Origin: Escherichia phage vB_EcoS_I14
DNA: 64,000 nt
Direction: 5' to 3' (one strand)
Sequence record: PP892525.1
The notes under the pieces were generated by a model. That model saw nothing but the letters and a program-made list of their open reading frames with translations, did no database searches and was not told the DNA's origin. Positions 33,760 through 44,692 of this stretch are shown in pieces. The position numbers and the translations under genes were made by a program. Numbering within the stretch: position 1 is the stretch's first letter; each line of letters opens with the position of its first letter.

Positions 33760-33930
33760 ATGAAATCAGTTGTAATTATTGGTGTTAACACTCGCGGTAT
33801 TCGTACTACGAAAACTGTTAAAACTTCTAACGTTGCTGAGATCACTACGAACCCTAAAAAGTTTGATTTCGCCAAAGTCTCAGCAGTTATGACAGAACAA
33901 TCTTTTAACCAAGCATTGGGGATGAAATAA
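33760..33930 (+). CDS. hypothetical small protein (56 aa), below the ORF-track length cutoff
   Basis: ATG at 33760 after RBS GAGAGGAAG; stop overlaps next start. Confidence 0.4.
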   Translation: MKSVVIIGVNTRGIRTTKTVKTSNVAEITTNPKKFDFAKVSAVMTEQSFNQALGMK

Positions 33931-34364
33931 TGGGTACGAATATGATTCGTGTGCTGCGAGAATTAATTGAAAAAGCTCGCAAACACGGTGATACTGTGTC
34001 AGTCAAGCACCTTAGTACGATTTTAGGTGACTTACAACGAATTGATAAAGATTGCGTATCTAGACTAGAGTTTACTAACTGGATTAAATCACAGTTCAAA
34101 GCAATTGAGAGTACAATGACTTCTGCTGCAAAAGCAAATATCGAGTATACTCCAGATGCTGAATATCTCGACTTGTTAGCAGGTCTAGAGTATGAATATG
34201 CTCTAGAGCAGTTAACTGAAGTTCAGATTCGTGAGTATTTTGCAGAACTGGTTAAATTAAACCCAGGTATTACCAAAGCTCTATTAATGAAAACTATTAA
34301 GGCAGAATTTCCTGGACGTTATGACGGTAAAACAACTGCTTTGATTGCTAGTGAATTTTTCTAA
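33930..34364 (+). CDS. hypothetical protein (144 aa)
   Basis: ORF. Confidence 0.5.
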   Translation: MGTNMIRVLRELIEKARKHGDTVSVKHLSTILGDLQRIDKDCVSRLEFTNWIKSQFKAIESTMTSAAKANIEYTPDAEYLDLLAGLEYEYALEQLTEVQIREYFAELVKLNPGITKALLMKTIKAEFPGRYDGKTTALIASEFF

Positions 34365-34477: not shown

Positions 34478-34549
34478 GCCGTCCTAGTATAATTGGTATT
34501 ATCAAGCCGTAACTGGTGGAAGATGTAGGTTCGAATCCTACGGTCGGTA
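34478..34549 (+). tRNA. tRNA-like element (degenerate; anticodon arm does not fold)
   Basis: canonical T arm GTAGG-TTCGAAT-CCTAC and acceptor GCCGTCC/GGTCGGT with mismatches. Confidence 0.35.
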
Positions 34550-36840: not shown

Positions 36841-36918
36841 GGTTCTCAAGCTCATATGGTATGAGCACCCGGCTCATAACCGGAAGGTACGTAGGTTCGA
36901 ATCCTCGGGGAGCCACCA
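36841..36918 (+). tRNA. tRNA with anticodon CAT (Met, fMet or Ile-lysidine)
   Basis: anticodon loop CTCATAA; acceptor GGTTCTC/GGGAGCC; T stem imperfect. Confidence 0.6.
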
Positions 36919-37134: not shown

Positions 37135-37211
37135 GGGGGTGTAATCGAATTGGCATAGGTACTGGACTTAAAATTCAGGTTTTGTGGGTTCGAATCCCAC
37201 CACCCCTACCA
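37135..37211 (+). tRNA. tRNA with anticodon TAA on a short-variable-loop scaffold
   Basis: acceptor GGGGGTG/CACCCCT, anticodon stem CTGGA/TTCAG with loop CTTAAAA, T arm GTGGG-TTCGAAT-CCCAC, CCA; D arm weak. Confidence 0.55.
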
Positions 37212-38759: not shown

Positions 38760-38836
38760 ATTCCTAGAGTGTTACTGGACAGCATGTCGGTCTCCAAAAC
38801 CGTACGGTCTAGGTTCGAGTCCTAGTAGGTTTGCCA
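38760..38836 (+). tRNA. possible tRNA-Trp (anticodon CCA) with a mismatched acceptor stem
   Basis: anticodon loop CTCCAAA, T arm CTAGG-TTCGAGT-CCTAG, CCA; acceptor has two U-U oppositions. Confidence 0.45.
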
Positions 38837-39739: not shown

Positions 39740-39822
39740 GGGTCGTTAGCCAAGCGGTTTGGCGGCGGATTGTTAATCCGTGTCGAAAGACAACGTAGGT
39801 TCGAATCCTACACGGCCCGCCA
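39740..39822 (+). tRNA. tRNA with anticodon GTT on a long-variable-arm (type II) scaffold
   Basis: acceptor GGGTCGT/ACGGCCC, anticodon stem GCGGA/TCCGT with loop TTGTTAA, 13 nt variable arm GTCGAAAGACAAC, T arm GTAGG-TTCGAAT-CCTAC, CCA. Confidence 0.6.
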
Positions 39823-39924
39823 AATTCTGTGTAGAGTTAAGTAAACCGGTAGCCAACCAGCTATCATTGCTGACATCGAATTCAGCCACAGATACCATTT
39901 TCATTAATAACTGAGGAAACAAGC

Positions 39925-40110
39925 ATGTCCAAGAATGTAATTGCACAGTTAGAAGTTCATCGTGATAACACAGCTAATAACATTAAGTGCCGACAAAAAG
40001 ATATTGAAGCTCGAAAGGCTGATCTTTTAATGAGTATTCGAGAGCTTAATGTACGAAAAGAGTTTCTTAAAGAACTTAATGCAGCTATTGAAAAACTCAA
40101 AGCTGAGTAA
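39925..40110 (+). CDS. hypothetical protein (61 aa)
   Basis: RBS GAGGAAA. Confidence 0.45.
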   Translation: MSKNVIAQLEVHRDNTANNIKCRQKDIEARKADLLMSIRELNVRKEFLKELNAAIEKLKAE

Positions 40111-44605: not shown

Positions 44606-44692
44606 GCTGGGTTGGCAGAATGGTTGAATGCACCTGATTTGTAATCAGGAGGAGTAATCCCGTTGCAGGTTCGAATCCTGTGCCCAGCACCA
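44606..44692 (+). tRNA. tRNA-Thr (anticodon TGT) with a 15 nt variable region
   Basis: acceptor GCTGGGT/GCCCAGC, anticodon stem CCTGA/TCAGG with loop TTTGTAA, T loop TTCGAAT, CCA; variable region AGGAG plus TAATCCCGTT. Confidence 0.6.

What the first reader, a model, noticed from the sequence alone, without database searches (positions are those of the whole stretch)
39740..39822. Type II (Ser/Leu/Tyr-like) tRNA scaffold carrying an Asn anticodon (GTT)
This gene has a perfect acceptor helix, a 3 bp D stem, a 13 nt variable arm with its own stem (GTC/GAC) and a canonical T arm, which is the architecture of bacterial tRNA-Ser/Leu/Tyr. Its 7 nt anticodon loop reads TTGTTAA, anticodon GTT, which decodes AAC/AAU. 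Seryl-tRNA synthetase recognises the long variable arm rather than the anticodon, so such a tRNA could in principle be charged with Ser and misread Asn codons. It may alternatively be a genuine tRNA-Asn with an unusual body.
Basis: partly seen in the sequence, partly recalled or inferred. Interest (0 to 1): 0.7.

Follow-up and report, generated by a model that had tools for sequence, protein, structure and literature searches.

The report
Phage asparagine tRNA with extra arm
This is a real T5-like phage tRNA that almost certainly carries asparagine but has an extra hairpin arm normally seen only in serine, leucine and tyrosine tRNAs; the same design recurs in many unrelated phages, is rare in bacteria, and has no description I could find.

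Summary
Window 39740-39822(+) is an 83-nt tRNA gene with anticodon GUU, G73, an encoded CCA and a 13-nt variable arm that forms a GUC/GAC stem with a GAAA loop. ARAGORN, Rfam (58.4 bits) and free-energy folding all agree. The Ser-mischarging interpretation is not supported. Across 101 distinct long-armed GUU tRNAs from at least five phage groups plus IMG/VR, the Asn identity set is what stays conserved (G73 in 99/101). The tRNA-Ser acceptor pair G2-C71 is present in only 41/101. The arm has Tyr-type geometry (3-4 bp stem, 3-4-nt 3' tail), not Ser-type. With the anticodon arm and variable arm masked, 58/103 bodies classify as ordinary tRNA-Asn. The arm helix covaries as strongly as the T stem. 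Roughly 19% of viral tRNA-Asn genes sharing this anticodon arm carry the extra arm, against 1.4% of other class I isotypes. Only 18 pattern hits, about a dozen of them real, occur in about 100,000 cellular genomes. In T5-like phages the gene is allelic to T5's short tRNA-Asn, which has been shown experimentally to help neutralise the PARIS tRNA nuclease. The window's allele keeps the host anticodon stem unchanged. Best reading: a genuine tRNA-Asn whose arm may shield it from host tRNA nucleases. The shielding role is inferred and untested.

The parts
39740..39822 (+). tRNA-Asn(GUU) gene, 83 nt including the encoded CCA, with a class-II-like long variable arm
   Evidence: ARAGORN; Rfam RF00005 58.4 bits; RNAfold cloverleaf, z=-3.12; annotated tRNA-Asn in relatives
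39740..39746 (+). Acceptor stem 5' strand GGGUCGU. It pairs with 39812-39818 (ACGGCCC): G1-C72, G2-C71, G3-C70, U4-G69, C5-G68, G6-C67, U7-A66
39749..39763 (+). D arm GCCA-AGCGGUU-UGGC. It forms a 4-bp stem in this copy and includes C11-G24. D-loop position 16 is C where host tRNA-Asn has U
39765..39781 (+). Anticodon arm GCGGA-UUGUUAA-UCCGU, with anticodon GUU at 39772-39774. It is identical to E. coli asnT/U/V/W except C32->U32, so it retains U36AAUC|C41, the site where AriB cuts host tRNA-Asn
   Evidence: PMC12409363
39782..39794 (+). Variable arm GUCGAAAGACAAC. The hairpin GUC-GAAA-GAC lies at 39782-39791 and the 3-nt tail AAC at 39792-39794
   Evidence: family covariation; geometry statistics
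39795..39811 (+). T arm GUAGG-UUCGAAU-CCUAC
39819..39822 (+). Discriminator G73 (an Asn identity element and an antideterminant for LeuRS and TyrRS), followed by the encoded CCA
   Evidence: PMC9976931
39657..39732 (+). tRNA-Cys(GCA), 7 nt upstream and probably co-transcribed. This flank is 100% identical to T5, whereas the Asn gene itself is replaced
44606..44692 (+). Parallel case: tRNA-Thr(UGU), 87 nt, also with a long hairpin variable arm. It has Thr identity pairs G1-C72 and C2-G71 and keeps the host-like U36AAUCA41. T5 proper has a 75-nt short allele with U39->G

Best explanation
It is a functional, phage-encoded tRNA-Asn. The host AsnRS most likely charges it with asparagine through the minimal Asn identity set (G34, U35, U36 and G73), and it reads AAC/AAU like the host tRNA-Asn, whose anticodon arm it copies almost exactly.

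Its unusual feature is a short, stable hairpin inserted in the variable region: a 3-bp stem, a GAAA loop and a 3-nt tail. This makes it look like a class II tRNA. The hairpin is a selected structural element shared by a large and probably polyphyletic population of phage tRNA-Asn genes.

[quoted passage not shown] Host tRNA-targeting defence nucleases that read the tRNA body, with PARIS AriB as the prime candidate, would then bind it poorly. The anticodon arm can meanwhile stay host-optimal for AsnRS, modification enzymes and decoding. T5 itself uses the alternative solution: a short tRNA-Asn whose anticodon stem is mutated at the cleavage site.

Shown here: the gene, the fold, the conservation, the covariation, the enrichment in viruses and in Asn, and the allelic relationship to T5. 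Shown in the literature: T5's own (short) tRNA-Asn helps neutralise PARIS. Inferred: charging with Asn, and the shielding role of the arm.
For: Gene and fold.

Family: the gene is in 637 phage records. These include Demerecviridae, Straboviridae (Jiaodavirus), Marfavirus, Phapecoctavirus and phiKZ-like phages.

Identity: G73 in 99/101, GUU in all (required by the search pattern), G2-C71 in only 41/101. The E. coli Asn identity set is the anticodon plus G73 (PMC9976931). U1-A72 occurs in Pseudomonas phage copies, matching the GatCAB requirement. The body-only classifier gives 58/103 as Asn, with a calibration accuracy of 0.81 for ordinary Asn. It is the sole Asn decoder in a set covering all 20 amino acids.

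The arm is selected: all 4 arm pairs show double changes and the inner 3 are 97-100% paired. For the three helices together the covariation score is 0.599, against 0.141 for shuffles (0/500) and at most 0.10 for slid controls. Arm MFE is -3.19 against -0.48 shuffled, and 70/101 loops are GNRA.

Enrichment: 23/120 viral tRNA-Asn with this anticodon arm are long, against 5/346 other class I tRNAs. Only 18 hits occur in 100,044 cellular species, mostly inside tRNA arrays.

Defence link: AriB cleaves host tRNA-Lys(UUU), Thr(UGU) and Asn(GUU) at 40|41, with a second contact modelled at D-loop U16-U17 and distal determinants still unexplained. T5 tRNA-Lys, Thr and Asn together rescue cells (PMC12409363). 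In the window, the two class I tRNAs with long arms are exactly Thr(UGU) and Asn(GUU), and both keep the host cleavage-site sequence. T5's short alleles both carry U39->G.

Precedent: the enlarged variable loop of the T5-like phage SP15 tRNA-Tyr is required to neutralise Retron-Eco7 (PMC12673091).
Against: No aminoacylation or cleavage data exist for this long-armed allele. The PARIS experiments used T5's short allele.

Belukhina et al. report that the T5 relative Bas34 encodes a tRNA-Asn yet still needed plasmid-borne T5 tRNA-Asn for rescue. I could not determine which allele Bas34 carries. If it is the long one, the shield idea is weakened.

Long-armed tRNA-Asn also occurs in phages of very diverse and unknown hosts where PARIS may be absent, so any nuclease pressure would have to be broader than PARIS.

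Class IIb synthetases approach tRNA from the variable-loop side (recalled knowledge), so the arm must somehow be tolerated by AsnRS. That is untested.

This particular copy also carries G1-C72, G2-C71, C11-G24 and G73, which overlap the Ser identity set.

The 19% figure comes from the first 120 rows of a capped scan that is rich in redundant isolate genomes, and it applies only to genes with the GGACUGUUAAUCC anticodon arm.
Confidence: 0.72

Rival explanations
1. Deliberate mistranslator or dual-identity tRNA. SerRS recognises the long arm together with G1-C72, G2-C71, C11-G24 and G73, and charges it with serine, so Asn codons are partly read as Ser during infection.
For: This copy has G1-C72, G2-C71, G3-C70, C11-G24, G73 and a long arm. 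Serine identity is anticodon-independent and relies mainly on the variable arm (PMC9976931). The body-only classifier labelled 14/103 family members as Ser.
Against: Family-wide, the Ser acceptor determinants are not conserved: G2-C71 is in 41/101, the antideterminant C2-G71 in 40/101, and U1-A72 in 66/101. The arm is 3-4 bp with a 3-4-nt tail, whereas Ser arms in the same loci are mostly 5-7 bp with a 1-nt tail. From memory of Himeno et al. 1990, a Tyr-type arm had to be lengthened by three nucleotides, with A73->G73, before SerRS accepted it. The gene is the only Asn decoder of the phage set and is fixed in hundreds of genomes. All Asn determinants are present, so AsnRS would compete.
Confidence: 0.05
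2. The arm is a neutral or merely stabilising insertion in a genuine tRNA-Asn. It is tolerated because Asn identity needs only the anticodon and G73, and it has no role in evading defence. It may arise easily, for example by small duplications, and then hitch-hike in phage tRNA clusters.
For: An Azoarcus tRNA-Asn copy (L158) acquired a long arm through an 11-nt tandem duplication, which shows how easily such arms arise. GNRA-capped mini-hairpins are generic stabilisers. Other phage tRNAs also break the class I/II rule, for example 20/47 short tRNA-Leu.
Against: Neutral insertions should not show sustained compensatory covariation. Nor should they be about 14-fold enriched in Asn over other class I isotypes, or enriched in viruses over cells. 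In this window the arm-bearing class I tRNAs are precisely two of the three AriB targets.
Confidence: 0.25
3. Remoulded class II tRNA. The gene descends from a phage tRNA-Tyr by anticodon shift GUA->GUU plus A73->G73, so the arm is ancestral rather than inserted.
For: The arm geometry is Tyr-type. The window's stem GUC/GAC is the same as in E. coli and phage tRNA-Tyr arms. tRNA-Tyr recurs among the best whole-body matches for the isolate-phage copies. In Phapecoctavirus UP17, tRNA-Tyr lies 7 nt upstream of the long tRNA-Asn. A single anticodon base separates GUA from GUU.
Against: The body-only classifier gives Tyr for only 3/103, against Asn for 58/103. Many copies have UCC... acceptor stems and U1-A72, like bacterial tRNA-Asn. 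Similarities of 0.65-0.73 are not discriminating. The window copy is nearest to no class II isotype.
Confidence: 0.12
4. Non-translational decoy. The molecule is tRNA-shaped but acts mainly as a competitive inhibitor or sponge for a host nuclease, or for another tRNA-binding defence protein, rather than as a decoder.
For: Belukhina et al. raise the possibility that over-expressed viral tRNAs inhibit AriB by competition (PMC12409363). The anticodon arm exactly mimics the host target.
Against: The full set of translation features is conserved: 7/5 acceptor/T helices, a T loop with the canonical UUCGAAU sequence, G18G19, encoded CCA and the Asn identity set. The gene also occupies the Asn slot of a complete 20-amino-acid tRNA set.
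Confidence: 0.08

Closest known systems
Bacterial tRNA-Asn(GUU), e.g. E. coli asnT/U/V/W
   Same: The anticodon GUU and G73 are the same. The anticodon arm G26-GCGGA-(C/U)UGUUAA-UCCGU matches at 14/14 compared positions. It has the 7/5 acceptor/T architecture, and in most family members U1-A72 and UCC... acceptor stems.
   Different: The host gene is 76 nt with a 5-nt variable loop (AUGUC) and a 4-bp D stem GUUC/GAAC. The window gene has a 13-nt hairpin arm, G1-C72, different acceptor, D and T sequences, and U32. No full-length homolog exists in 5,426 E. coli genomes.
T5 tRNA-Asn(GUU), T5t17: the allele shown to contribute to anti-PARIS rescue (Belukhina et al. 2025, PMC12409363)
   Same: It occupies the same syntenic slot between tRNA-Cys and tRNA-Asp with homologous flanks (100% and 89% identity). 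It has the same anticodon, G73 and encoded CCA.
   Different: T5's gene is 78 nt and class I, with a substituted and partly mismatched anticodon stem (U36AAGUU41). The window's gene is 83 nt with a long arm and the unaltered host stem (U36AAUCC41). Only the T5 allele has been tested experimentally.
Bacterial class II tRNAs (Ser, Leu, Tyr)
   Same: A long variable arm forms its own helix. Relatives have a 3-bp D stem with a large D loop. The arm geometry matches the Tyr type.
   Different: The anticodon and discriminator specify Asn. G73 is an antideterminant for LeuRS and TyrRS. The arm is much shorter than Ser arms. Body sequences mostly classify as Asn.
SP15/T5 phage tRNA-Tyr with an enlarged variable loop that evades Retron-Eco7 PtuAB (PMC12673091; PMC11555353)
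   Same: It is a T5-like phage tRNA whose remodelled variable arm is the feature that distinguishes it from the host tRNA. For that tRNA the arm has been shown to be necessary for neutralising a tRNA-targeting defence.
   Different: That case enlarges an arm that already exists in a class II tRNA, and the nuclease cuts within the arm. Here an arm is added to a class I isotype, and any protective effect is hypothetical.
Class-II-shaped tRNAs with non-Ser/Leu/Tyr anticodons: nematode nev-tRNAs (recalled from memory, Hamashima et al. 2012) and bacterial/phage allo-tRNAs (Mukai et al. 2017, PMC5389517)
   Same: A long variable arm is combined with an anticodon of a class I amino acid.
   Different: Those tRNAs keep Leu or Ser identity and are candidate mistranslators or suppressors. 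Allo-tRNAs have 8/4 or 9/3 acceptor/T helices. Here the helices are 7/5 and the conserved identity elements match the anticodon.

Membership tests
tRNA (Rfam RF00005) | Cloverleaf scoring above the gathering threshold (29 bits), with the anticodon loop in register | tested here: met
   58.4 bits, E=1.2e-12, full model 1-71, anticodon loop aligned as UUGUUAA; ARAGORN call
tRNA-Asn (E. coli-type identity for AsnRS) | G34, U35, U36 and discriminator G73 | tested here: met
   All four are present. G73 is in 99/101 family members. Identity set taken from PMC9976931
tRNA-Asn (E. coli-type identity for AsnRS) | Actual aminoacylation with Asn | not testable with these tools
   Needs an in vitro charging assay or analysis of charged tRNA
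tRNA-Asn (body resemblance) | Acceptor, D arm, T arm and N73 resemble ordinary tRNA-Asn when the anticodon arm and variable arm are masked | tested here: inconclusive
   For the family, 58/103 classify as Asn. The window copy has mixed neighbours: Lys 4, Arg 2, Ser 1, Cys 1, Asn 1, Met 1
Class II (type II) tRNA architecture | Variable region longer than 10 nt that forms its own helix | tested here: met
   13 nt, GUC/GAC stem with GAAA loop; the helix covaries in the family
Class II (type II) tRNA architecture | 3-bp D stem with an enlarged D loop | tested here: inconclusive
   The window copy can form 4 bp (A13-U22) with a 7-nt loop. Most relatives have 3 bp with a 9-11-nt loop
tRNA-Ser (E. 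coli SerRS identity) | G1-C72, G2-C71, C11-G24 and G73 | tested here: met
   All are present in the window copy, but they are not conserved in the family: G2-C71 in 41/101, G1-C72 in 33/101
tRNA-Ser (E. coli SerRS identity) | Ser-type long arm: 15 nt or more, stem of about 5-7 bp, one unpaired nucleotide 3' of the stem | tested here: not met
   The window arm is 13 nt with 3 bp and a 3-nt tail. Ser arms in the same viral loci are 15-23 nt, mostly 5-7 bp, with (1,1) geometry
tRNA-Tyr (bacterial) | A73 and anticodon GUA (U35, A36) | tested here: not met
   G73 and GUU are present. Only the arm geometry is Tyr-like
tRNA-Leu (bacterial) | A73 discriminator | tested here: not met
   G73 is present. 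A73 is crucial for Leu identity
allo-tRNA (Mukai et al. 2017) | 8/4 or 9/3 acceptor/T-stem configuration | tested here: not met
   The configuration is the canonical 7/5; definition from PMC5389517
Phage anti-defence tRNA (counter to PARIS AriB) | Resistance to AriB cleavage and rescue of infection or growth under PARIS | not testable with these tools
   Demonstrated only for the T5 alleles (PMC12409363). The window allele keeps the cleavage-site sequence U36AAUC|C41 and differs in the arm and at D-loop position 16 (U->C)

The most novel reading that the evidence does not exclude
Adding a hairpin arm to the variable region is a recurrent, convergently evolved phage counter-defence. Under this reading, the arm lets phage tRNA-Asn keep a host-identical anticodon arm while sterically escaping host tRNA nucleases that read the tRNA body. 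The same would apply, in this phage, to tRNA-Thr(UGU). PARIS AriB is the prime candidate nuclease, because it spans the anticodon stem at 40|41 and the D loop at 16-17. This route would be an alternative to the cleavage-site mutations seen in T5 itself. It would also mean that the textbook class I/class II tRNA division is routinely breached in viruses for immune-evasion reasons.
Probability: 0.3. Interest if true: 0.8.

Novelty: new variant of a known kind. Interest (0 to 1): 0.6.

Why it matters
Textbooks restrict long variable arms in bacteria to tRNA-Ser, Leu, Tyr and Sec. Known exceptions, such as nev-tRNAs and allo-tRNAs, keep Ser or Leu identity and are discussed as mistranslators.

Here a large, virus-enriched population of tRNA-Asn genes carries a covarying extra arm while conserving Asn identity. 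I found no description of this in the searchable literature, including the papers that studied T5 tRNA-Asn.

Three things would follow if this is confirmed.

1. It gives a natural test of how a class IIb synthetase (AsnRS), ND-AspRS/GatCAB, EF-Tu and the ribosome tolerate an extra arm.

2. It offers a concrete, cheap experiment on an open question in the PARIS field: which distal tRNA features AriB reads. The two natural solutions to compare are a mutated stem and an added arm, in allelic phage genes.

3. It warns annotators and isotype-mismatch screens that 'class II shape plus class I anticodon' in phages usually does not signal recoding.

Tried and rejected
1. Host homolog. blastn of the gene against 5,426 complete E. 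coli genomes found only T-arm fragments. The gene is not a captured host tRNA.

2. Direct link to the PARIS experiments. I first assumed that the T5 tRNA-Asn and tRNA-Thr used by Belukhina et al. were the long-armed genes. Fetching T5 showed that they are short class I alleles, so the experimental rescue data do not apply directly to the window's allele.

3. Bas34/Bas33 allele. I tried to locate these BASEL genomes by guessing accessions and taxids and failed, so I abandoned this.

4. Origin from tRNA-Tyr. Region-wise identities and arm geometry suggested it, but the calibrated body-only classifier did not. I kept it as a low-probability rival that concerns origin only.

5. Neighbouring 'tRNA amidotransferase' (33930-34364). 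I checked whether it could bear on Asn-tRNA formation. It matches PHROG 1460 by name only, with no Pfam hit, no PDB sequence hit and a low-confidence AF2 model. I dropped it.

6. Literature. Nine full-text searches and eleven papers read or searched in full text turned up no description of long-armed tRNA-Asn. The word 'variable' is absent from both PARIS tRNA papers and from van den Berg et al. 2023.

7. Promoter/terminator scan around the gene. The number of matches was at shuffle expectation and so uninformative.

Full report
**What is there.**
The window is part of a T5-like phage (Demerecviridae). A 2-kb query around the finding matches 450 phage records, the best being Salmonella phage HMD-P4 at 97.6%. 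ARAGORN finds 24 tRNA genes between 35.0 and 45.7 kb that cover all 20 amino acids, and Rfam adds two weaker hits. The target at 39740-39822(+) is called tRNA-Asn(GUU), 83 nt with an encoded CCA. Rfam's tRNA model scores it 58.4 bits with the anticodon loop in the expected register and a 10-nt insertion in the variable region. Unconstrained folding yields a five-armed cloverleaf at -33.9 kcal/mol (z=-3.12).

The acceptor helix has one U4-G69 wobble. The D stem of this copy can form 4 bp.

**It is not a one-off.**
The same gene at 95% identity or more is in 269 phage records. Recognisable homologs of 80-87 nt occur in several other groups:
- other Demerecviridae (Proteus PM135, Providencia PR1, SuperGirl);
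- T4-like Klebsiella/Enterobacter phages (Jiaodavirus);
- Marfavirus;
- Phapecoctavirus;
- phiKZ-like Pseudomonas jumbo phages.

Together with the isolate phages it gives 101 distinct long-armed tRNA-Asn(GUU) sequences, with variable regions of 9-24 nt.

The same long-only pattern found 18 stretches in one genome for each of 100,044 bacterial and archaeal species. About a dozen of these are real. Most sit inside large tRNA arrays or on small MAG contigs. One (Azoarcus, L158) is an evident 11-nt tandem duplication in an ordinary tRNA-Asn.

In a scan that accepts both short and long gaps, 23 of the first 120 viral hits were long. In the background loci of that scan, only 5 of 346 distinct class I tRNAs of other isotypes have a long hairpin arm. 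The extra arm is thus enriched both in viruses and in Asn. These figures are rough. The scans are row-capped and rich in redundant isolate genomes, and they apply only to genes with the GGACUGUUAAUCC arm.

**The arm is a selected structure.**
I used a gap-free alignment of 38 distinct sequences with 15-nt variable regions. All four arm pairs show changes on both sides, and the inner three pairs are 97-100% paired with 3-5 pair types each. This matches the T stem. For the three helices together the covariation score is 0.599, against 0.141 for shuffles (0/500) and at most 0.10 for slid registers. Arm hairpins are far more stable than shuffled controls (-3.19 against -0.48 kcal/mol), and 70 of 101 are capped by GNRA tetraloops, mostly GAAA.

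**Which amino acid?**
The published E. coli Asn identity set is the three anticodon bases plus G73, and G73 is an antideterminant for LeuRS and TyrRS (PMC9976931). Several lines point to Asn.

- The window gene has all four determinants, and G73 is present in 99/101 family members.
- G2-C71, absolutely conserved in bacterial tRNA-Ser, is found in only 41/101. C2-G71, listed as a SerRS antideterminant, is in 40/101, and 66/101 have U1-A72.
- Arm geometry separates the isotypes cleanly in the same viral loci. Ser arms are 15-23 nt, mostly 5-7 bp, with one unpaired base on each side. Leu arms have a 2-nt 3' tail. Tyr arms have 3-4 bp and a 3-nt tail. The Asn arms have 3-4 bp and 3-4-nt tails, which is Tyr-type and not Ser-type.
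- A nearest-neighbour isotype classifier used only the acceptor stem, D arm, T arm and N73. Its leave-one-out accuracy is 0.81 for Asn, 0.92 for Ser, 0.94 for Leu and 0.73 for Tyr. It labels 58/103 long-armed genes as ordinary Asn, 14 as Ser, 5 as Leu and 3 as Tyr. The window copy has no clear neighbour class.
- The first base pair follows the host's route to Asn-tRNA. phiKZ-type copies have U1-A72, the determinant for bacterial GatCAB, and P. aeruginosa uses ND-AspRS plus GatCAB (PMC2330236; PMC9976931). The copies in phages of Enterobacterales, which have AsnRS, carry G1-C72.

Taken together, the gene is best read as a true tRNA-Asn with an added arm. The Ser-misreading idea is unlikely, but for this particular copy it is not excluded, because the copy does have G1-C72, G2-C71, C11-G24 and G73.

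**Relationship to T5 and to anti-phage tRNases.**
T5 proper carries a different allele in the same slot. It is a 78-nt class I tRNA-Asn whose anticodon stem is substituted (U36AAGUU41). The flanks are homologous to the window, at 100% on the tRNA-Cys side and 89% downstream. About 134 records carry the T5-type allele and 269 the window-type.

Belukhina et al. 2025 (PMC12409363) report the following:
- A second AriB subunit is modelled on D-loop U16-U17.
- Unidentified distal features also matter.
- Co-expressed T5 tRNA-Lys, Thr and Asn rescue cells and phages.

Neither that paper, nor Burman et al. 2024, nor van den Berg et al. 2023 mentions the variable region.

In the window, the only class I tRNAs with long arms are Asn(GUU) and Thr(UGU). 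Both keep the host sequence at the AriB site, UAAUCC and UAAUCA respectively. The short T5 alleles of both carry U39->G. The long Thr allele is in about 100 T5-like phages and in Aeromonas T4-like phages, and it assorts independently of the Asn allele.

There is a precedent. The enlarged variable loop of the T5-like phage SP15 tRNA-Tyr is required to neutralise Retron-Eco7, whose nuclease cuts the host tRNA-Tyr variable loop (PMC12673091; also Septu, PMC13096335).

From these facts I infer, but cannot show, that the arm is an alternative way of escaping body-reading tRNases while leaving the anticodon arm host-optimal. Three points count against this:
- The long allele has never been tested.
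- Bas34 encodes some tRNA-Asn yet needed T5's allele for rescue.
- The family extends to phages of many unknown hosts.

**Origin.**
Whole-body comparisons of the isolate-phage copies put tRNA-Tyr, tRNA-Cys and the long tRNA-Thr at the top, but at non-discriminating identities of 0.65-0.73. Host tRNA-Asn matches only in the anticodon arm, at 14/14 positions. The classifier and the many UCC.../U1-A72 acceptor stems instead favour Asn bodies with an inserted hairpin. D-arm types and arm geometries are diverse, which suggests several independent origins. The Azoarcus duplication shows one easy route.

**Verdict.**
The gene belongs to a widespread and apparently undescribed class-II-shaped variant of tRNA-Asn that is characteristic of phages. 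Its function as an Asn decoder is well supported by sequence logic. The purpose of the arm is an open and readily testable question, with defence evasion as the leading hypothesis.

Noticed in passing
window 44606-44692 (+): tRNA-Thr(UGU) of 87 nt also has a long hairpin variable arm (AGGAGUAAUCCCGUU). It has Thr identity pairs G1-C72 and C2-G71, A73, and a host-like U36AAUCA41. T5 proper has a 75-nt class I allele instead. The long allele is in about 100 T5-like phages and, at 77% identity, in Aeromonas T4-like phages (PX29, Ah1).
   Followed up: partly
window 37135-37211 (+): tRNA-Leu(UAA) is type I, with a 5-nt variable loop, 77 nt and A73. This is the reverse breach of the class rule. T5 proper has no Leu(UAA) gene. 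In the background viral loci 20 of 47 distinct tRNA-Leu are short.
   Followed up: partly
window 34478-34549 and 36841-36915 (+): Two Rfam tRNA hits (35.5 and 40.3 bits) are not called by ARAGORN. The second corresponds in position to T5's tRNA-Ile2(CAU). The first lies in the region T5 annotates as stable 'RNAX', where ARAGORN calls an odd tRNA-Ser(ACU)-like structure in T5.
   Followed up: partly
window 33930-34364 (+): A 144-aa ORF, homologous to T5.081, matches PHROG 1460, which is named 'tRNA amidotransferase'. It has no Pfam hit and no PDB sequence hit, and only a low-confidence all-helical AF2 model (pLDDT 59.6). The functional label is unsupported.
   Followed up: partly
window 39823-39895 (+): The sequence immediately downstream of tRNA-Asn is conserved with T5, which annotates it as 'rna3, putative tRNA-like RNA'. 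Neither ARAGORN nor Rfam recognises a tRNA there.
   Followed up: no
window 39925-40110 (+): A small 61-aa ORF between tRNA-Asn and tRNA-Asp is a full-length DUF7337 / PHROG 5473 protein of unknown function, conserved in the tRNA cluster of T5-like phages.
   Followed up: no
window tRNA cluster, e.g. 39770, 38121, 43684: Several phage tRNAs (Asn, Tyr, His, Thr, both Ser) have U32 where the E. coli counterparts examined (Asn, Tyr, Thr, Ser) have C32. In tRNA-Asn this is the only difference from the host anticodon arm.
   Followed up: no
window 38760-38836 (+): tRNA-Trp(CCA) has two U-U mismatches in the acceptor stem (positions 2-71 and 3-70), a mismatched pair in the anticodon stem, and a low Rfam score (36.3 bits).
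   Followed up: no
L158 2092-2334 (Azoarcus sp. L1K30 chromosome): Two adjacent tRNA-Asn genes are identical except for an 11-nt tandem duplication (AUCCGUAGGUC) that turns the second into an 87-nt 'long-armed' gene. This is a natural example of how such arms can arise.
   Followed up: partly
L072, L083, L100, L101, L103, L113, L121, L131 and others (IMG/VR jumbo-phage contigs); L147, L149, L154 (cellular tRNA arrays): Many large phage contigs and tRNA arrays carry both a short and a long tRNA-Asn(GUU) side by side. This would fit a division of labour or redundancy against a tRNA-targeting nuclease.
   Followed up: no
phage records H130-H132 (Erwinia phages IT22, pEa_SNUABM_55, Hena1): Genes annotated tRNA-Trp match nucleotides 10-76 of the window's long tRNA-Thr, including the variable arm. 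This suggests further long-armed class I isotypes.
   Followed up: no
phage records MG065642.1 and MG065692.1 ('Campylobacter phage' A148, C13): Records labelled as Campylobacter phages carry T5-like tRNA-Asn and tRNA-Thr genes at 96% identity. They are probably mislabelled or contaminated T5-like genomes.
   Followed up: no
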